Shown: positions 57,783 through 64,000 of the stretch, piece after piece
Layout of the letters: every line of letters begins with the position of its first letter
Numbering within the stretch: position 1 is the first letter of the stretch
Assembly: GCA_034422315.1 (NCBI GenBank)
Contig: DAOUJT010000190.1
Span: 1,518 to 65,517 of the forward strand
DNA: 64,000 nt
From: Chloroflexota bacterium
GTDB taxonomy: Bacteria > Chloroflexota > UBA11872
Direction of reading: 5' to 3'
The notes under the pieces: model-generated
What the model was told of the DNA's origin: nothing
Seen by the model: the letters and a program-made list of their open reading frames with translations, nothing else
Database searches by the model: none
Position numbers and translations under genes: made by a program

Positions 57783-57806
57783 AAGAGTTTTTTCCAAAAA
57801 ACTCTT
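57783..57806. repeat. perfect AT-rich inverted repeat (11-bp arms, 2-nt loop)
   Basis: AAGAGTTTTTT-cc-AAAAAACTCTT, read directly. It lies 68-91 nt upstream of the Flp-like gene. Confidence 0.9.
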
Positions 57807-57829
57807 GAGGCAGTTCGGGGCGCATTTTG

Positions 57830-58370
57830 GCGGGGTGGGGGAGGAAGGGTGGAGGGGCGAGGGAAGAGAAGTGAGGGTGGATAGGCACGGGGACTGGGGA
57901 CGGGGTGCGGATCGGGTGGGCGGTGTCGTGGCAGGACGATGGGGCGAGGCCTGGGCGGCGCGGCGCGCCGGGGGCGGAGATTGGACGGGGCTGGGCGCGG
58001 GCGTCTGGGAGCGGAATGTGACTGGGGGGTGAAGGGGGAACTGTCTCTCGCCAGCCGGCCCCCAGAGGGGGCCGGCTGGCGAGAGACAGTTTGGGCCGGA
58101 TTTTTTGGCGGGTCGGGGAGGAAAGTTGGGGTTGTGAGGGGGGTGGGCGGAAGGGGAGAGGGCAGCGGAGTGAGTGGTGGGAAGGGGAGAGGGCAGAGAA
58201 GTGAGGAGTGAGAGCGGAAAGGGAAGGGAACGGGGGCGGAAGGGTAGAGGGGAGAGGGAAGAGGAGTGAGAGAAGAGGGGAGCGAGGAAGGGACGGAAGA
58301 GCAGGAAGCGGAGAGCTGGGAGGATCGGGGCGAGTGGGGTGGCGGGCATTTGGAACAGGGGTTGCAGGGC
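57830..58370. repeat. purine-rich (G/A on + strand) tract with dispersed imperfect copies of a ~26-33-nt motif
   Basis: Copies of GGAAGGGGAGAGGGCAG(C/A)G(G/A)AGTGAG are at 58149-58174 and 58180-58205 (2 mismatches). Looser copies are at ~57851-57875, 58238-58270 and 58679-58711. There are many G3-G6 runs. Confidence 0.85.
58039..58091. repeat. perfect 25-bp-stem palindrome with 3-nt loop
   Basis: AACTGTCTCTCGCCAGCCGGCCCCC-aga-GGGGGCCGGCTGGCGAGAGACAGTT. I checked arm against arm. A T6 run lies at 58101-58106. Confidence 0.95.
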
Positions 58371-58490
58371 TTACTCGGATAGTGTACAGTATGTGAGGGT
58401 AAGTGGCAAGTGGGTGGTGGGGAGCGGCTTGTGATGAGGGCGGGTGTAGGGCTGCCGGGGTCGGCGGGTGGACCGGCGCCGGTGATAGGG

Positions 58491-58571
58491 GATGCCGTCA
58501 GTGATGGCAATGCAATCAACGCTGGCATCGCAGGCGTTGCTGGCAGTGCAGGCAACGCTGGCGGGGATGGC
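58491..58571. repeat. 9-nt periodic tract (about 9 units, most ending in GGC)
   Basis: Units are gatgccgtc/agtgatggc/aatgcaatc/aacgctggc/atcgcaggc/gttgctggc/agtgcaggc/aacgctggc/ggggatggc. The tract contains nested inverted repeats CAACGC...GCGTTG and GCGTTGC...GCAACGC. Confidence 0.8.
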
Positions 58572-58599
58572 GAGCCCAAGACGCTTGGATGCTGATGGC

Positions 58600-59030
58600 C
58601 GGGTGGTTCCCTTCGACAGGCTCAGGGCAGGCTCTACGGGCCGCCGACGGACTCCGGGTCGGCTCACCACGAACGGGGGGAAGGGGAGAGGGAAGAGGGC
58701 AGAGGAGTGAGAGGGAAAGAACAAGGGGTTGGTTGCTGTAGCCGGGGGTGTGGTTCGACACGGTCCGGTGGGTACACCCGCCCGGCTCACCACGAACGGG
58801 GTGGGGCCGATGAGTGGCTCGGGGGTGGTTGCCCGGAAGAGGCCGGTTGGAAACCGGCCCCTACGTCCGGAAGGGATGCGGACGGCAGGGGACTCGGGGC
58901 GCTGAGGGCTGGGGGCGCGGGCAGAATGTGGGCGTTGTCGGGAGCCGCCGCTGTGAGGGGATCTTTGCATAACCCAAGGTTGGTTGCCCGGAAGACCCTC
59001 ACCCCAACCCTCTCCCAGAGGGCGAGGGAG
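58600..59030. repeat. cluster of REP-like short repeats and hairpins
   Basis: A 19-nt direct repeat CGGCTCACCACGAACGGGG is at 58660-58678 and 58783-58801. A 15-nt repeat TGGTTGCCCGGAAGA is at 58826-58840 and 58981-58995. Hairpins are GGCCGGTT-gga-AACCGGCC (58841-58859) and CCCTCTCCC-aga-GGGCGAGGG (59008-59028). Confidence 0.8.
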
Positions 59031-59092: not shown

Positions 59093-61960
59093 GTGGCTGG
59101 CGGGCTGACGGCCGGGGCGTTCATCGATAAGTGGCGGGCGGTGACGCTGAATGAGCGGGCGGTGGCGCAGGAGCACTTCATCGATCTGTGCCGGTTGCTG
59201 GGCGAGCGGACGCCGGTGGAGGCCGACCCGGAGGGGGACGAGTTCTGCTTCGAGCGGGGGGCGCGGAAGGATGGCGGGGGCGGCGGTTGGGCGGACGTGT
59301 GGAAGCGGGGGTGTTTCGCCTGGGAGTACAAGTCGCAGGGCAAGGACCTGGACGCGGCGTTTCAGCAGCTGCGGCAGTACGCGCTGGCGCTGGAGAACCC
59401 GCCGCTGCTGATCGTCTCGGACACGCGGCGGTTCCGGATTCACACGAACTGGACGAACAGCGTCAGCACGGTCCACGAGTTCACGCTGTACGAGCTGGAC
59501 GATCCCGGCACGCGCAACCTGCTGACGTGGGCGTTCAGCGATCCCGAACGGTTGCGGCCGGAGCAGACGCGGCAGGCGCTGACCGAGCAGGCGGCGGCGA
59601 CGTTTGCCGAACTGGCGCAGGGGTTGCGAGAGGCCGGGCACGAGCCGCAGACGGTGGCGCACTTCGTCAACCGGCTGGTGTTCTGCATGTTCGCGGAGGA
59701 CGTGGGGTTGCTGCCGGACCAGATGTTCCGGCGGATGCTGGACCAGGCGCGGCTGCGGCCGGAGCGGTTCGCGGGGATGGCCCGGAGCCTGTTCGCGGCC
59801 ATGCAGGACGGCGGCATGGTCGGGTTCGAGGAGGTGGCGTGGTTCAACGGCGGGCTGTTCGACGACGACACGGCGCTGCCGCTGGACCGGCCGCAGGTGA
59901 ACGCGGTGCGGGAAGCGGCAGGGCTGGACTGGTCGGAGATCGACCCGTCGATCCTGGGGACGCTGTTCGAGCGGGGCCTGGACCCGGACAAGCGCTCGCA
60001 ACTGGGGGCGCACTACACGGACCGCGACAAGATCATGCAGATCGTGGACCCGGTGATCGTGCGGCCGTGGCTGGCGGAGTGGGCGGCGACCAAGGAGAAG
60101 CTGGTCGACCTGCTTGACCGGGCTGAAAAGGCCAAGACGACGCAGACGGCGAGCCGGCGTCGGCAGGAGGCCTCGAAGCGGTTACGCGAGTTCCTGGAGC
60201 GGCTGGCGGCATTCCGGGTGCTGGACCCGGCCTGCGGGTCGGGCAATTTCCTGTACCTGGCGCTGCACGCGCTGAAGGACCTGGAGCACCGGGTGCGGGT
60301 GGAGGCGCAGACGCTGGGTTTGCAGCCGCCGTTTCCGGCGGTGGGTCCGGCGAACGTGACGGGGATCGAGCTGAACCCGTACGCGGCGGAACTGGCGCGG
60401 GTGTCGGTGTGGATCGGCGAGATCCAGTGGATGCGGCGTCACGGGTTCCGCGAAGACCGCGACCCGATATTGAAGCCGCTGGACACGATCGAGTGCCGGG
60501 ATGCGGTGCTGACGGCGGACGGGCAGGAGCCGGAGTGGCCGGAGGCGGATGTGGTGATTGGGAATCCGCCGTTCTTGGGTGCGCGACTCCAGGTGTGGAC
60601 GCTCGGCGAGGAGTACATGTCGCGACTCCGCGAGGTCTTCGCCGACCGCGTGCCGGGCGGCGGCGATTTCGTCTGTTACTGGTTCGCGAAGGCGGGCGAC
60701 CAGATACGGGCAGGTAAAGCACGACGTGCGGGACTTGTCGCGACGAATTCCATCCGGGGTGGAGGAAGCCAAAGGGCCCTTCGTAACGCCACTGACAACC
60801 TCAAGATCTTCGATGCCTGGAGCGACGAGGAGTGGGTCAACGATGGTGCTGCTGTCCGGGTGTCCCTGGTCTGTTTCTCACGCGCGAGCGACTCTGCCCT
60901 CTCAGCCACGAAACTTGACGGTCAAGAAGTCGCGAAAATCTACTTGGACTTATCGGCTGATCACGGTAGCGAGGGCGTCGATCTCACGAAGGCCCAACGA
61001 ATTTCAGCAAACGCGAATGTTGCATTCATGGGCCACGCAAAAGGCGGTCGTTTCGACGTTGCGGGAGAGATGGCCCGTGAGTGGCTGCAACTACCTTCCA
61101 ATCCGCACGGTCGGTCAAATGCCGATGTCCTGAAGCCTTGGATGAATGGACGAGACCTTACGAGTCGGCCGGCCGGGAAGTGGATCGTCGATTTCGGGTG
61201 GACCATGTCAGAAGGTGACGCGGCGCTTTATGAACAACCGTTCCGCTGGGTCAAAGACCATGTCTTTCCGATGCGGCAACGGAACCCGCGCGAGGCGCGG
61301 CGACGATACTGGTACCGCCACATGGATCCACCGCAACGCATGTGGCAGGCCATCGACCAGAAGTCCCGCTACATCGCAACGGCACGAGTCGCCAGACACC
61401 GGCTGTTCGTTTGGTGCGACGCTCGCGTGTGCCCGGATCAGCAACTGATCGTGATTGCGCGCGGTGACGACACGACCTTCGGCATCCTGCACAGCCGCTT
61501 TCATGAACTGTGGTCGCTGCGGTTGGGCACCAGCCTGGAGGACCGTCCGCGCTACACGCCCACGACCACCTTCCAGACCTTTCCGTTTCCCGAAGGTCTG
61601 ACGCCGGACATTCCCGCCGCCGACTACGCCGACGATCCGCGCGCCATCGCCATTGCCGAGGCCGCGCGACACTTGGTCGAACTGCGTGATCGCTGGCTGA
61701 ATCCGCCGGAGTGGGTGGAGTGGGTTGAGGAGCCGGTGGCGGGGTATCCGAAACGGGCGGTGCCGACCAAGGCTGCTCCGGTGCGGGAGCTTCGAAGGCG
61801 GACGTTGACGAATCTGTATAACGAGCGGCCGCAGTGGTTGGTGGATGCGCATGGGGAGTTGGATGCGGCGGTGGCGGCTACCTATGGCTGGGATGCGAAC
61901 ATGCAGGACGCCGATGCCCTAAAGGAACTTCTCAGGCTGAATCTCTCTCTGACCTGCTGA
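59093..61960 (+). CDS. MmeI-family Type IIL (IIG) restriction-modification enzyme: N-terminal PD-(D/E)xK nuclease + N6-adenine methyltransferase + target-recognition domain
   Basis: Nuclease motif D68-x9-E78-x-K80 (WADVWKRGCFAWEYKSQGKDL). Other motifs are LGAHYT, SAM motif I VLDPACGSGNFL (nt 60221-60253), motif IV NPPF (nt 60563-60574) and NSIRGG. The C-terminal ~400 aa form the TRD region. GTG start preceded by GAGGGG. Confidence 0.88.
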   Translation: MAGGLTAGAFIDKWRAVTLNERAVAQEHFIDLCRLLGERTPVEADPEGDEFCFERGARKDGGGGGWADVWKRGCFAWEYKSQGKDLDAAFQQLRQYALALENPPLLIVSDTRRFRIHTNWTNSVSTVHEFTLYELDDPGTRNLLTWAFSDPERLRPEQTRQALTEQAAATFAELAQGLREAGHEPQTVAHFVNRLVFCMFAEDVGLLPDQMFRRMLDQARLRPERFAGMARSLFAAMQDGGMVGFEEVAWFNGGLFDDDTALPLDRPQVNAVREAAGLDWSEIDPSILGTLFERGLDPDKRSQLGAHYTDRDKIMQIVDPVIVRPWLAEWAATKEKLVDLLDRAEKAKTTQTASRRRQEASKRLREFLERLAAFRVLDPACGSGNFLYLALHALKDLEHRVRVEAQTLGLQPPFPAVGPANVTGIELNPYAAELARVSVWIGEIQWMRRHGFREDRDPILKPLDTIECRDAVLTADGQEPEWPEADVVIGNPPFLGARLQVWTLGEEYMSRLREVFADRVPGGGDFVCYWFAKAGDQIRAGKARRAGLVATNSIRGGGSQRALRNATDNLKIFDAWSDEEWVNDGAAVRVSLVCFSRASDSALSATKLDGQEVAKIYLDLSADHGSEGVDLTKAQRISANANVAFMGHAKGGRFDVAGEMAREWLQLPSNPHGRSNADVLKPWMNGRDLTSRPAGKWIVDFGWTMSEGDAALYEQPFRWVKDHVFPMRQRNPREARRRYWYRHMDPPQRMWQAIDQKSRYIATARVARHRLFVWCDARVCPDQQLIVIARGDDTTFGILHSRFHELWSLRLGTSLEDRPRYTPTTTFQTFPFPEGLTPDIPAADYADDPRAIAIAEAARHLVELRDRWLNPPEWVEWVEEPVAGYPKRAVPTKAAPVRELRRRTLTNLYNERPQWLVDAHGELDAAVAATYGWDANMQDADALKELLRLNLSLTC

Positions 61961-61966
61961 CGGGTT

Positions 61967-62122
61967 ATGAGTGACCTCGCACCGCGAAACAATTCCTCGG
62001 TTACCCATCGCCTCTCTACGCCTATCGCCGGCAAATGCCTGCAACTTCTCGACAATCCACAATGCTATATCAACGACTTCAAATGGGCTCCTACTTGGGC
62101 TCCTACTTGGGGTCCTACATAA
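61967..62122 (+). CDS. possible 51-aa small ORF ending in a (W-x-P-T)x3 repeat
   Basis: The ATG is 6 nt after the MmeI-like stop. The translation is MSDLAPRNNSSVTHRLSTPIAGKCLQLLDNPQCYINDFKWAPTWAPTWGPT. It has a weak RBS and falls below the ORF-track size cut-off. Confidence 0.25.
   Translation: MSDLAPRNNSSVTHRLSTPIAGKCLQLLDNPQCYINDFKWAPTWAPTWGPT
62085..62120. repeat. 12-bp tandem direct repeat x3
   Basis: GGGCTCCTACTT / GGGCTCCTACTT / GGGGTCCTACAT, read directly. Confidence 0.9.
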
Positions 62123-62431
62123 TTGATGCACCCAGCGGATTTGGCGGCTCCGATATCATCATCGGATCCTGTGTCCGGTGTGTCCTACACCCATCCATTA
62201 TAGCGGAAATGTAGCTACCGAAAAAGGGGTTGCTACTGTTTCATCTTAAGCGAGGCCGGTGGTAGGTAGGTCAAAGGACCAGCAGGAATAGTGTTGATCC
62301 ACTGACGAGAACCACCTGTCAGTGGCCCTTACGCAGTCGTGCCAGATAAGCAGGGACTGCCGTGCGAGGGGTACATAATAACCTTCCATTACTGACTCGC
62401 CTTCTTGTCAGCTACATTAACTGATCTACAG

Positions 62432-62869
62432 CTAGGGTTCTCGCGCGGGGACCAGACAGCTAACTAATTCAGCGAGTTCATCGGCGATATCACGCTCACA
62501 ACATCGACAACCACAAATATCAGCATGGGCAGGGTTGTCTACGTTGTCACCCTTGCTCTTTTGTTTAGGCGTATGACAAACCTTTAGTGGATAGCCGTGT
62601 GCTGGAAGCACAAAGTCACGAATATCACAAACATTCAGAATTGCGTAACGAGCGTTCGCTCCACGGGTTAGACCAGGACGTGACCTGATCTGTGTCATCG
62701 CTGTTTGAAAGTCAGAACTATAGTATTCCAGCCAATCTACCGATATCTCAGGCCTGTTGTCGTCAAGCATGAATGCTGTGTGGAGAACGGAGCCAAGGTC
62801 AGTTTCGAGTTTACTCTTGCCACAATACCGCGCCACACGATGCCCGTCTTTGATTTTCAATGCCTTCAT
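62432..62869 (-). CDS. hypothetical protein ORF-A (145 aa), Cys/His-rich C-terminal part; last gene of low-GC operon
   Basis: Long ORF in AT-rich DNA. Its ATG directly abuts the TAG of the upstream ORF. The cluster CHTPKQKSKGDNVDNPAHADICGCRCC is at nt 62498-62578. No family was recognised. Confidence 0.7.
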   Translation of the reverse strand: MKALKIKDGHRVARYCGKSKLETDLGSVLHTAFMLDDNRPEISVDWLEYYSSDFQTAMTQIRSRPGLTRGANARYAILNVCDIRDFVLPAHGYPLKVCHTPKQKSKGDNVDNPAHADICGCRCCERDIADELAELVSCLVPAREP

Positions 62870-63601
62870 CTAAAACTCTACGAGGAATGATTCTACAAAA
62901 TGCAATGCATCGTCAGTGGGCAGCACTTCTATATGTCGCTCTTGACCACGCTTTATCTTATACCAAATTGTGTCGTCAGGCAAAAATGCCATTAGAATCG
63001 ACAACCCTTTGCCTGGATCGCCCCACTTTGCTGTGACAGTACCATCACGCTCAACGGCTATCGCAGGACGCTGAATCCAGCGTCTAAAAGTAAGAACCTT
63101 TATTGCAACCTCCAGCGAGGAACAATTAATCGAGCTATACTCAGGGTCTAGATCAGCCTCTGCCCACAACTCGTCAAGTCGATCAGCGATTTCAAAAAAC
63201 CCAGCAAAGCCAAGCATTTTGATTCGCGTATAAATCTTCAGTTCATCGACATATGCTTTGTCAATCTCAATACCTTCAAAGGTCAAACTCTGACTCTCTG
63301 TACTTTCCCGTGCTAAAGCAGGCAGATCTATAGCGCCGCTTCCAAGTAAGGCACCGGCAATAAATGCACGAGTAACTCCGGTTCGCATACGCACCGAATC
63401 ATCAAGGAGACAGCTCCGGATATAGCGATGCAGCGAGTCGCTAGAAAGACTATCGTAATCCTCTTTGGATAATTCGGATTCAGATACTCGATTTTCCCAA
63501 TCAAGCCACAGGCGGTGATGTTGAACACTAGGTAGCCTGATAACTGGCTTAGTCGCAGGAGAATGAAACGTGGCAATTTCTGCCACAGACACCGCCGACA
63601 T
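62870..63601 (-). CDS. hypothetical protein ORF-B (243 aa), middle gene of low-GC operon
   Basis: Long ORF in AT-rich DNA. Its ATG is 1 nt after the stop of the upstream ORF. No family was recognised. Confidence 0.7.
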   Translation of the reverse strand: MSAVSVAEIATFHSPATKPVIRLPSVQHHRLWLDWENRVSESELSKEDYDSLSSDSLHRYIRSCLLDDSVRMRTGVTRAFIAGALLGSGAIDLPALARESTESQSLTFEGIEIDKAYVDELKIYTRIKMLGFAGFFEIADRLDELWAEADLDPEYSSINCSSLEVAIKVLTFRRWIQRPAIAVERDGTVTAKWGDPGKGLSILMAFLPDDTIWYKIKRGQERHIEVLPTDDALHFVESFLVEF

Positions 63602-63602
63602 G

Positions 63603-63998
63603 TCAGCTAAGACCTTGTTCTGACTCGTCGACTCCTTTTGCAGTCTCTACATAGTGACGCAGAGCATTAGTCACTATTTCATGCAAGTCGCGTAGGCGAA
63701 GAGGGTTGATAATGACACGAGCAACCGAAATGATCTCGACTTCGTCCAAATCTTCTAAAGGCTCTTGGTGCAACATGGTACCAGGAGGCAATGGAGGGTT
63801 TATAAAACCCATGTGAAGACAGTATTCGTGTTCATTCGGATTAGCTTGTAAGGCAAACACGTTCACATAAGGTGCCGGATGCGAGTCGTCTATCTTCCAA
63901 ACCTGACGAAGAACAGTAGGCTCAATTTGTTTTGACTCGCCCTGACTTACAGCCTGGTGACCCCTGTTGACAGTTGACTCAGTTTCAGCCATGTTCAA
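63603..63998 (-). CDS. hypothetical protein ORF-C (about 130 aa), loosely DUF3467-like; may be truncated by window edge
   Basis: The probable ATG is at 63992 (MAETEST...), and no upstream stop is visible before the window ends. The pattern YVNVFALQANPNEHEYCLHMGF...VARVIINPLRLRDLHEIVTNALRHY recalls the DUF3467 layout from memory only. Confidence 0.65.
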   Translation of the reverse strand: MNMAETESTVNRGHQAVSQGESKQIEPTVLRQVWKIDDSHPAPYVNVFALQANPNEHEYCLHMGFINPPLPPGTMLHQEPLEDLDEVEIISVARVIINPLRLRDLHEIVTNALRHYVETAKGVDESEQGLS

Positions 63999-64000
63999 GC

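What the first reader, a model, noticed from the sequence alone, without database searches (positions are those of the whole stretch)
62432..64000. Low-GC, translationally coupled three-gene cassette of unknown function next to an MmeI-type R-M gene (candidate undescribed defence/conflict system, cut by the window edge)
Seen in sequence: base composition drops abruptly at ~61.96 kb, by eye from about two-thirds G+C to under one-half. On the minus strand three long ORFs are packed head to tail. The stop of ORF-C (63603-63605) is 1 nt from the ATG of ORF-B (63601). The TAG of ORF-B (62870-62872) directly abuts the ATG of ORF-A (62869). Uninterrupted ORFs of 130-243 codons are unlikely by chance in AT-rich DNA. 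I cannot place any of the three proteins in a characterised family. Established knowledge: defence genes cluster in horizontally acquired islands, often beside R-M systems. Inference: this is a horizontally acquired operon, and its neighbour suggests an anti-phage or toxin-type module. It probably continues upstream beyond base 64000, so the visible genes may be only its distal part.
Basis: partly seen in the sequence, partly recalled or inferred. Interest (0 to 1): 0.85.

Follow-up and report, generated by a model that had tools for sequence, protein, structure and literature searches.

The report
Uncharacterised toxin-antitoxin-like three-gene cassette
The three packed genes are real, complete and horizontally acquired, and two of them form a strictly linked gene pair of unknown function found in bacteria of more than a dozen phyla, which most resembles a toxin-antitoxin module rather than a partner of the neighbouring restriction enzyme.

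Summary
Three minus-strand ORFs are packed 1 nt and 0 nt apart: A 62432-62869, B 62870-63601, C 63603-63992. They lie in a 47% G+C patch inside a 63-70% G+C contig, convergent with an MmeI-type IIG R-M gene.

The operon is not truncated. A longer assembly shows ORF-C starts at 63992, preceded by about 230 bp of non-coding DNA. Only the RBS and promoter lie beyond base 64000.

No protein matches Pfam, NCBIfam, PADLOC, PHROGs or PDB sequences. ORF-A does belong to a large unannotated family: 326 representatives, at least 1449 clusters, 183 species genomes. In 84 of 87 A genes, a gene carrying the C-terminal domain of ORF-B sits directly upstream, most often with a 4-nt overlap. The other three are contig-edge or split genes. 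A natural B-A fusion exists.

The first gene is interchangeable: TIGR04255, a second unknown family, none, or ORF-C. It co-varies with B's N-terminus.

The module is absent from phage collections. It sits mostly among ordinary genes, is sometimes tandemly duplicated, and is only occasionally next to R-M genes.

Best reading: a tripartite toxin-antitoxin-like module with A as effector, B as neutraliser/adaptor and C as accessory. The biochemistry is unknown, because both structure models failed.

The parts
62432..62869 (-). ORF-A, 145 aa. Predicted effector (toxin-like enzyme). Member of a large unannotated family of about 140-aa stand-alone proteins.
   Evidence: ORF. The exhaustive HMMER profile search found 326 representatives at E<=1e-3, and the indexed profile search found 1449 clusters. 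Over 356 family sequences the conserved polar residues are R14 (98%), S43 (100%), W46 (99%), E48 (97%), R62, H99 and H115 (98%), and all are kept in the window protein. The subclade carries an extra Cys motif, GCRCCERDIADELA. No Pfam, NCBIfam, PADLOC, PHROG or PDB sequence hit.
62873..63259 (-). ORF-B C-terminal domain (about residues 115-243). This is the conserved partner domain of the A family and the predicted A-binding neutraliser.
   Evidence: phmmer with window ORF-B alone hit 37 non-self ORFs out of 6411. Thirty-six lie immediately upstream of an A homolog, and one is an orphan copy 1.2 kb from another pair. jackhmmer recovered 86 hits, with the conserved region mapping to B residues about 100-243. 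Near-invariant residues are R141, L145, S162, P179, W193 and F206. P0075 is a natural fusion of this domain to an A domain. dN is 0.20 with dS about 2 against L004.
63260..63601 (-). ORF-B N-terminal region (about residues 1-114). Variable, and co-varies with the identity of the first gene.
   Evidence: It is shared in part only with L003, which also has an ORF-C homolog. It is unrelated in L004, which has a different first gene, even though A and the B C-terminus are about 70% identical there. Across 80 loci, N-terminal sequence clusters never mix TIGR04255-type and U2-type loci, and every B that lacks an N-terminal extension lacks a first gene.
63603..63992 (-). ORF-C, 129 aa, complete. Clade-specific first gene of the cassette and predicted accessory or regulatory component.
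   Evidence: ORF. The only homologs are at the same position in L003 (32-34% identity) and a 99%-identical twin, P0274. No homolog in the 80 other loci or in JGI metagenome contigs. No family or PDB hit.
61961..64000 (.). Low-G+C (0.46-0.55) horizontally acquired patch holding the cassette. It runs on to about 64190 in window-equivalent coordinates.
   Evidence: Composition profiles. Window coordinate = 67187 minus L001 coordinate, and L001 G+C rises above 0.54 upstream of L001 about 3000.
61961..62431 (.). 471-bp spacer between the convergent MmeI-type gene and ORF-A. It contains a 12-nt tandem repeat at 62084-62118.
   Evidence: No terminator-like or promoter-like site was found. The spacer is not conserved in L003 or L004.
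59093..61960 (+). Neighbour only, not part of the module: an MmeI-type IIG restriction-modification gene, convergent with the cassette.
   Evidence: Pfam MmeI_N, MmeI_hel, MmeI_Mtase, MmeI_TRD and MmeI_C. PADLOC REase_MTase_IIG 4e-297. It is not a recurrent neighbour of the family.

Best explanation
The cassette is a complete, horizontally acquired tripartite toxin-antitoxin-like (conflict) module. Its invariant core is the gene pair B->A.

Shown:
- The three genes are translationally coupled.
- A belongs to a large family whose members are essentially always preceded by a gene carrying B's C-terminal domain.
- B-A fusions exist.
- The first gene and B's N-terminus are swapped together between lineages.

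Inferred:
- A is an enzyme-like effector. It has an invariant set of polar residues (R14, S43, E48, H99, H115) and its unrestrained activity would arrest growth.
- B's C-terminal domain binds and neutralises A.
- B's N-terminal region docks the product of the first gene (ORF-C here; TIGR04255 or the 'U2' family elsewhere). That product tunes or triggers release of A.

Speculative:
- The trigger could be phage infection, stress, or loss of the element.
- The substrate is unknown. Because A is acidic (family median pI about 5.6), a nucleotide, small-molecule or protein target is at least as likely as RNA cleavage.
For: - Junctions of 1 nt and 0 nt between the three genes.
- 84 of 87 A genes in 83 loci have a B homolog directly upstream, with gaps of -23 to +38 nt. 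The modal gap is a 4-nt overlap (37 cases). The 3 exceptions are two contig-edge genes and one fragment of a split gene.
- phmmer with the window B alone finds the upstream neighbours specifically.
- Only A, B and the two first-gene families recur across loci.
- P0075 is a natural B-domain-A fusion.
- B N-terminal clusters segregate perfectly with first-gene type, and short B proteins lack a first gene.
- Between the window and L004, A and the B C-terminus are about 70% identical, while the B N-terminus and the first gene are both replaced.
- Invariant polar residues in A contrast with mostly hydrophobic or structural invariants in B.
- Distribution is patchy over more than 12 phyla, in 183 of about 185,000 species genomes.
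- Diverged tandem paralogous pairs (37-50% identity) occur within one genome.
- The cassette has a foreign composition of 47% G+C in three differently composed hosts.
- It stands alone in unrelated neighbourhoods.
- The proteins are soluble and cytosolic.
Against: - There is no experimental or structural evidence that A is toxic or that B binds it.
- Both AlphaFold models were unusable: pLDDT 32 and 53 from 2-sequence alignments, and Foldseek returned nothing below E=0.4.
- B shows no recognisable DNA-binding domain of the kind most type II antitoxins have.
- A is acidic, unlike most RNase toxins.
- There is no match to any known toxin, antitoxin or defence model.
- Strict gene linkage and fusion are equally expected for a non-toxic two-subunit enzyme or an enzyme-regulator pair.
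- Co-variation of the B N-terminus with the first gene could partly reflect shared descent.
Confidence: 0.5

Rival explanations
1. A non-conflict two-subunit or enzyme-plus-regulator complex, for example a stress-response or modification enzyme A with its assembly or regulatory partner B and an optional third subunit. It spreads by HGT but is not toxic.
For: Strict B-A linkage and a natural fusion are typical of obligate subunits. Many relatives sit among ordinary metabolic and housekeeping genes. A is acidic and lacks any toxin signature. B has no DNA-binding domain.
Against: The family is very sparse and patchy: 183 of about 185,000 species. It has no conserved neighbourhood. Diverged tandem copies occur in one genome. 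The first gene is interchangeable. The composition is foreign. All of these are more typical of selfish or conflict modules than of a metabolic function.
Confidence: 0.25
2. A dedicated anti-phage defence system that belongs to a defence island and cooperates functionally with the adjacent MmeI-type R-M enzyme.
For: In this locus the cassette lies between an MmeI-type IIG gene and, beyond the window, a frameshifted AAA_21 ATPase and a DUF6338 gene, in a compositionally mosaic region. L004 has HicB-like and HigA-like antitoxin genes next door. A few relatives flank IIG, type III or type I methyltransferases, integrases or Schlafen/AlbA_2 genes.
Against: The cassette is convergent with the R-M gene and differs from it in composition. 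R-M-like neighbours make up only about 5-10 of 147 flanking genes, spread over 120 Pfam families. Three annotated metagenomic loci lie among housekeeping genes. There is no PADLOC model hit for any component, including representatives of relatives. No background-corrected enrichment could be computed.
Confidence: 0.15
3. Cargo of a phage, prophage or plasmid, for example an anti-defence or superinfection-exclusion module carried by a mobile element.
For: The patch has a foreign composition next to an R-M gene. TIGR04255 genes occur on two plasmids near TA, methylase and CRISPR genes.
Against: No relative of A was found in IMG/VR viral contigs or in 50,697 GenBank phage records. Only two weak hits appeared in 72,556 plasmids. 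There are no integrase, tRNA, terminal repeats or conserved non-coding ends around the cassette.
Confidence: 0.05
4. Chance ORFs or decayed pseudogenes in AT-richer DNA, or an assembly chimera.
For: None beyond the abrupt change in composition.
Against: Shuffle test 0/2000. dN/dS is about 0.1. Protein-level homologs sit in the same order in other loci. The junction is reproduced in three assemblies.
Confidence: 0.01

Closest known systems
Type II toxin-antitoxin modules in general, such as Xre-RES or HigBA (comparison from my own knowledge of the class)
   Same: Two small, co-directional, translationally coupled genes with the putative neutraliser upstream. The distribution is patchy and HGT-like. 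There are several diverged copies per genome. The module stands alone in unrelated neighbourhoods. The downstream protein has the more conserved, enzyme-like residue pattern.
   Different: Neither protein matches any known toxin or antitoxin family. No HTH, RHH or other DNA-binding domain is detectable in B. The putative toxin is acidic. Toxicity and neutralisation are untested.
Tripartite toxin-antitoxin-chaperone (TAC) systems, such as the M. tuberculosis HigB-HigA-SecB-like chaperone (from my own knowledge)
   Same: Three genes are involved. An extension of the antitoxin-like protein appears matched to a third, dedicated component: here the B N-terminus matches the first gene, and in TAC the antitoxin ChAD extension matches the chaperone.
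   Different: No SecB-like or other chaperone domain is present. The third gene is first in the operon and belongs to several unrelated families. The extension is N-terminal, not C-terminal.
Modular 'hyperpromiscuous' TA networks, such as Panacea/DUF4065 antitoxins and NetFlax (from my own knowledge)
   Same: The architecture is modular, with one component held constant while partners are exchanged between lineages.
   Different: Here the constant part is the effector plus its binding domain, and the exchanged part is an accessory gene plus the adaptor N-terminus. No DUF4065 or other Panacea-type domain was detected. I could not check whether A or B are among the unnamed NetFlax clusters.
TIGR04255 family ('sporadically distributed protein'), the only annotated component of related cassettes
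   Same: In 23 related loci the gene in ORF-C's position is a TIGR04255 protein (71-159 bits against a cut-off of 30). It overlaps B's start in nearly all of these loci.
   Different: ORF-C itself is not TIGR04255 and shows no profile similarity to it. TIGR04255 has no known function, and 0 papers in the searched library mention it. On two plasmids it is followed by genes unrelated to B and A.
PADLOC candidate system PDC-M32 (gene B)
   Same: The N-terminal 'DHVARYC...AF' region of one A relative aligned weakly to the first third of the PDC-M32B profile (E=0.047, 12 bits).
   Different: The match is far below significance. The window protein gives no hit at all. I treat this as a lead only.

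Membership tests
Type II toxin-antitoxin system (generic) | Adjacent, co-directional, translationally coupled small genes that co-occur across genomes | tested here: met
   Junctions of 0 and 1 nt. B is directly upstream of A in 84 of 87 cases, with a modal 4-nt overlap.
Type II toxin-antitoxin system (generic) | One product inhibits growth and the other neutralises it by direct binding | not testable with these tools
   The only indirect support is the natural B-A fusion P0075. The structure models were too poor for complex modelling.
Type II toxin-antitoxin system (generic) | The toxin or antitoxin belongs to a recognised TA family, or the antitoxin carries a DNA-binding domain | tested here: not met
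   No Pfam, NCBIfam or PADLOC hit for A, B or C at E<=1. None for 78 A relatives or for the family consensus sequences.
Toxin-antitoxin-chaperone (TAC) tripartite systems | SecB-like chaperone gene plus a HigB, HicA or MqsR-type toxin | tested here: not met
   No such domains in A, B or C, or in the first genes of relatives.
Known or candidate anti-phage defence systems (PADLOC-DB v2.0.0) | Significant match of at least one component to a system model | tested here: not met
   Window A, B and C: 0 families. Representatives of relatives (U1, U2, B, A): none below E=0.01 except chance-level hits. Newer DefenseFinder models were not available.
Defence-island resident (guilt by association) | Relatives are enriched next to known defence genes | tested here: inconclusive
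   About 5-10 of 147 flanking genes are R-M or methyltransferase-like, with 2 integrases and 2 Schlafen/AlbA_2. The three loci examined this way lie among housekeeping genes. No genomic background was available for a statistic.
Accessory or regulatory genes of the MmeI-type IIG R-M enzyme | Same transcription unit as the R-M gene, or recurrent co-occurrence with it | tested here: not met
   The orientation is convergent, with a 471-bp spacer and a jump in composition. IIG-type neighbours occur in only 2 of the 147 flanking genes examined. L004 has none.
TIGR04255 family (for ORF-C) | Score at or above the 30-bit NCBIfam cut-off | tested here: not met
   ORF-C: no NCBIfam hit at E<=1. hhalign of the ORF-C family against the U1 profile gives probability 0.1%. 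By contrast, the first genes of 23 related loci do meet it.
DUF3467 (for ORF-C; a resemblance recalled from memory only) | Pfam PF11950 match | tested here: not met
   ORF-C: 0 Pfam families at E<=1. No profile-profile test against DUF3467 was possible.
A-family / B-domain gene pair (the unnamed family defined here) | The A protein keeps R14, S43, W46, E48, H99 and H115. The upstream gene ends with the B domain and keeps R141, S162, W193 and F206. | tested here: met
   The window proteins keep all of these residues. HMM scores are 150 bits for A and E=5.5e-32 for the B domain.

The most novel reading that the evidence does not exclude
The B-A pair is the core of a widespread, so far undescribed, modular conflict system. 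A would be a toxin with a new enzymatic fold, held by a dedicated binding domain whose exchangeable N-terminal adaptor plugs in different sensor proteins (TIGR04255, U2 or ORF-C). This would give the orphan TIGR04255 family its first functional context, as a trigger or sensor for abortive infection or addiction.
Probability: 0.3. Interest if true: 0.75.

Novelty: new variant of a known kind. Interest (0 to 1): 0.55.

Why it matters
If the reading is right, it adds a new toxin/effector family and a new cognate neutraliser domain to the toxin-antitoxin and abortive-infection repertoire. Together they cover at least 1449 protein clusters, none annotated. They come from environmental lineages that are poorly covered by experiments, such as Dehalococcoidia, anammox Planctomycetota, Desulfobacterota, Acidobacteriota and Latescibacterota.

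The 'constant effector plus swappable first gene' architecture gives a concrete, testable hypothesis for the function of the orphan TIGR04255 family. It also offers a natural system for studying how sensor modules are exchanged between conflict systems.

It also corrects the annotation of at least one locus (L004), where the A gene was missed by the gene caller.

Tried and rejected
- **Family scans.** I scanned A, B and C directly against Pfam, PADLOC, NCBIfam and PHROGs and found nothing. Scanning 78 A relatives and the family consensus sequences gave only chance-level hits.
- **PDB sequence and profile searches.** Searches for A, B, C, U1 and U2 gave nothing below E=0.7.
- **Structure prediction.** The models had pLDDT 32 (A) and 53 (B). 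Foldseek with the B model returned only noise. I did not search with the A model because it would be meaningless.
- **First genome scan.** It was repeated with a 28-sequence subset.
- **First-gene homology.** I tested whether ORF-C, L004-X, U1 and U2 are distant homologs with hhalign. Probabilities were at most 1.7%, so I rejected the idea.
- **Mobile-element ends.** I found no tRNA genes in the window, L001 or L003, no convincing repeats, and no conserved non-coding flanks between the three close loci.
- **Promoter and terminator scans.** These were uninformative. Rfam gave no hit in the window.
- **More subclade members.** Metagenome scans for more members of the window's subclade and for ORF-C relatives found none.
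- **Literature.** Searches for TIGR04255, CHP04255/IPR026349, DUF3467 and PDC-M32 found nothing relevant.
- **Catalytic-motif analogies.** I considered ART R-S-E, TIR, barnase/YoeB-type E-R-H, macro domain and Cys-His peptidase. None fits the order or spacing of the conserved residues. C16 is not invariant (88%). No corresponding Pfam model responds. I dropped all of them as unsupported.
- **Host organism.** The host of the window could not be named.
Full report
**Observation**

The minus strand of 62432-64000 carries three ORFs: A 62432-62869 (145 aa), B 62870-63601 (243 aa) and C 63603-63992 (129 aa from ATG). The sequence shows TGA-c-ATG between C and B, and TAG directly followed by ATG between B and A.

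G+C falls from 0.64-0.70 to 0.46-0.52 exactly after the stop of the upstream gene at 61960. This is the only such patch in a window that is otherwise 0.63-0.70 throughout.

The ORFs exceed chance. In 2000 shuffles of the region, none reached the observed longest stop-free run. The total length of long runs on that strand was 534 codons, against a shuffle mean of 12.7.

The neighbour at 59093-61960 (+) is an MmeI-type IIG enzyme carrying all five MmeI Pfam domains. PADLOC REase_MTase_IIG scores 4e-297. It is convergent with the cassette.

**The operon is complete**

An exact-protein look-up of ORF-B returned two other assemblies of the same sample. One of them, L001 (9326 bp), runs about 3.2 kb past the window end. 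Window coordinate = 67187 minus L001 coordinate.

In L001, ORF-C cannot start upstream of the TTG equivalent to 63998. The ATG at 63992 has a GAGG 7 nt upstream, equivalent to 64000-64003.

Ahead of it lie about 230 bp of non-coding DNA and then an AAA_21 ATPase gene on the same strand. That gene is frameshifted near L001 2670 and really ends near L001 2962. The '80-aa minus-strand gene' called there is a shadow ORF. G+C rises again upstream of L001 about 3000.

Only the RBS and promoter are outside the window.

**No known family**

A, B and C give no hit in Pfam, PADLOC, NCBIfam or PHROGs at E<=1. They give no significant hit against PDB sequences.

The indexed search of 5.8 billion proteins found one non-self relative each for A (P0002, 66% identity) and B (P0004, 72% identity over the C-terminal 46%).

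**Two sister loci**

The contigs of these relatives hold the same layout.

- L003 has C' (32-34% identity), B' (43%) and A' (66%), with junctions of 2 and 0 nt.
- L004 has an unrelated 218-aa first gene, then B'' whose last ~115 residues are 72% identical but whose N-terminus is unrelated, then A'' (71%). A'' abuts the B'' stop. The depositor's gene caller missed it.

dN is 0.20-0.27 with saturated dS for A and the B C-terminus, so both are under purifying selection. The B N-terminus has dN>1 between the window and L004.

All three cassettes are 46-48% G+C, in flanks of 55-68%. Non-coding flanks are not conserved, and there are no terminal repeats or tRNA genes in the window, L001 or L003; L004 carries a tRNA-Ala gene about 4 kb downstream and a weak tRNA-like hit just beyond A''.

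**A belongs to a large hidden family**

An exhaustive HMMER search with the A+P0002 profile over 1.84 billion representatives gave 326 hits at E<=1e-3. Nearly all are stand-alone proteins of 135-160 aa. A profile of 78 of them recovered 1449 clusters in the indexed database. All are 'hypothetical', with no precomputed Pfam domain.

None of the 78 matches Pfam or NCBIfam, and the profile matches no PDB sequence.

Over 356 sequences the conserved polar positions are R14 (98%), S43 (100%), N45, W46 (99%), E48 (97%), R62, H99, D112, S114 and H115 (98%). They sit in the motifs DHVARYC, LSVNWLE, HxP and DPSHxGI. The window protein keeps R14, S43, W46, E48, R62, H99 and H115. Like its two close relatives, it adds an invariant Cys cluster, GCRCCERDIADELA.

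**The conserved unit is the pair B-A**

A scan of one genome per species (185,579 species) found 183 relatives. Eighty loci were retrieved, from Desulfobacterota, Chloroflexota/Dehalococcoidia, Planctomycetota (anammox), Nitrospirota, Nitrospinota, Acidobacteriota, Latescibacterota, Gamma-, Alpha- and Zetaproteobacteria, Bacteroidota/Rhodothermota, Poribacteria, Binatia and Spirochaetota.

- In my six-frame analysis, 84 of 87 A genes have a B homolog ending -23 to +38 nt from the A start. Thirty-seven overlap by 4 nt. The three exceptions are two genes at contig ends and one fragment of a split gene.
- phmmer with the window ORF-B alone hit 37 non-self ORFs out of 6411. Thirty-six are the ORF directly upstream of an A gene, and one is an orphan B copy 1.2 kb from another pair.
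- Iteration recovers 86 B homologs. The shared region maps to window B residues about 100-243.
- P0075 is a natural fusion: B domain at residues 47-147 (E=4e-19) and A domain at 157-264.
- B's near-invariant residues are mostly structural: L145, P179, W193, F206 and a Gly, plus R141 and S162.

**The first gene is exchangeable and tied to B's N-terminus**

Clustering the genes in front of B gives several groups.

- 23 loci have a ~271-aa protein that is a TIGR04255 family member (71-159 bits; cut-off 30).
- 26-28 loci have an unrelated ~220-aa family ('U2') with no database match.
- 14 short B genes (about 136-170 aa, in 9 loci mostly Dehalococcoidia) have no first gene.
- One locus has an ImmA/IrrE-domain protein.
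- L004 has its own singleton.
- The ORF-C type occurs only in the window and L003.

hhalign finds no relation among ORF-C, L004-X, U1 and U2. Apart from A, B, U1 and U2, no gene recurs around the module.

B N-terminal sequence clusters never mix U1 and U2 loci, and every B without an N-terminal extension lacks a first gene. Within the window's own subclade, the swap of first gene (C versus X) goes with replacement of the B N-terminus, while A and the B C-terminus stay about 70% identical.

On two plasmids, TIGR04255 genes are followed by small genes unrelated to B or A. This suggests that TIGR04255 pairs with more than one kind of partner.

**Genomic ecology**

- No relative of A was found in IMG/VR viral contigs or in GenBank phages. 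Plasmids gave only two weak hits.
- The 147 genes flanking 80 cassettes fall into 120 Pfam families. A few are R-M or methyltransferase (N6_Mtase x3, Type_ISP_C x2, N6_N4_Mtase x2), integrase (x2) or Schlafen/AlbA_2 (x2). The rest are ordinary genes.
- Three further metagenomic loci with precomputed annotation place the 271/230/143-aa cassette between riboflavin/NusB genes, RadA/FtsJ/YebC genes and two-component regulators.
- Diverged tandem pairs occur: three pairs in L046 and two in L067, at 37-50% identity.
- All three window proteins are soluble and acidic to neutral. The A family has a median pI of 5.6.

**Interpretation**

These features together are those of a toxin-antitoxin-like selfish or conflict module:

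- tight coupling and an obligate pairing;
- an enzyme-like downstream protein;
- a sparse, cross-phylum distribution;
- foreign composition and stand-alone insertion;
- paralogous tandem copies.

The added twist is an accessory first gene matched to an N-terminal adaptor on the neutraliser. I therefore read A as the effector, the B C-terminal domain as its binding and neutralising domain, and ORF-C plus the B N-terminus as a lineage-specific regulatory or sensing attachment.

Only the linkage, fusion, co-variation and selection are shown. Binding, toxicity, trigger and substrate are inferred.

The main rival is a non-toxic enzyme-regulator complex, which would explain linkage and fusion equally well. 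A functional tie to the MmeI-type gene, or membership of a defence island, is not supported beyond this one locus.

**Limits**

- Profile-profile comparison with Pfam or PDB was not available.
- PADLOC is the 2023 release.
- I could not compare with unnamed clusters from published TA-network studies.
- A weak similarity of one A relative to PADLOC PDC-M32B (E=0.047), and my remembered resemblance of ORF-C to DUF3467, are leads only. Neither passed a test.

**Verdict**

This is a real, complete, horizontally acquired cassette. Its conserved core is an undescribed two-gene family of toxin-antitoxin-like design. It is a new variant of a known kind of system, of moderate interest, with clear experiments available to decide its function.

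Noticed in passing
L001 1719-2962 (window-equivalent about 64225-65468, beyond the window end): An AAA_21-family ATPase gene on the same strand as the cassette is frameshifted near L001 2670. A second frame continues with the Walker-B/D-loop region '...ICLEEPELGLHPD...TTHSD...' to about 2962. The 80-aa minus-strand gene called there is a shadow ORF. This is either a pseudogene or an assembly error.
   Followed up: partly
L001 269-1018: A DUF6338 gene sits in a second low-G+C patch (0.45-0.51), about 2 kb upstream of the cassette. The region beyond the window is therefore a compositional mosaic.
   Followed up: no
window 57800-59000: About 1.3 kb without a convincing gene. It is strongly purine-rich on the + strand (GC skew up to +0.63), with repeated GGGAAGAGGGGAG-type units and a long hairpin (about 25-nt arms, apparently perfect) at about 58040-58095. 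It lies between the ClpC-like gene and the MmeI-type gene. One independent assembly (Logan) breaks between the ClpC-like gene and the cassette, placing them on separate contigs.
   Followed up: no
window 62084-62118: A 12-nt tandem repeat (TGGGCTCCTACT x 2.9, 95% matches) lies in the 471-bp spacer between the convergent MmeI-type gene and ORF-A.
   Followed up: no
L004 1556-1993, 2203-2269 and 2326-3497: The ORF-A homolog (GTG start) was missed by the depositor's gene caller, which called a minus-strand shadow ORF instead. Just downstream are a weak tRNA-like Rfam hit (32 bits) and HicB-like and HigA-like (dnstrm_HI1420) antitoxin genes. This sister cassette therefore lies in a small TA cluster.
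   Followed up: partly
L086 3986-5816 (Crinalium plasmid pCRI9333.03); L087 4022-5324 (Thermus brockianus pTB1): Annotated TIGR04255 genes are followed, with a 4-nt overlap in Crinalium, by small hypothetical genes that match neither the A nor the B HMM. They lie near HNH, methylase, VapC/CopG and Cas6 genes. TIGR04255 may be a general first gene for several different small cassettes.
   Followed up: partly
L039 2224-2826: In a Cyclobacteriaceae locus the gene in front of B-A is an ImmA/IrrE (Peptidase_M78) domain protein. This is a type often found as a regulator of mobile-element or TA-like modules.
   Followed up: no
window 62432-62869 (ORF-A residues 121-138): The window's subclade of A carries an invariant Cys cluster (C121-x-C123-C124 ... 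C138, within GCRCCERDIADELA) that the wider family lacks. It may be a metal or redox site. It is unexplained.
   Followed up: no
window 60800-61400: G+C dips to 0.57-0.59 inside the MmeI-type gene, just upstream of and partly overlapping its target-recognition domain. This could reflect domain exchange.
   Followed up: no
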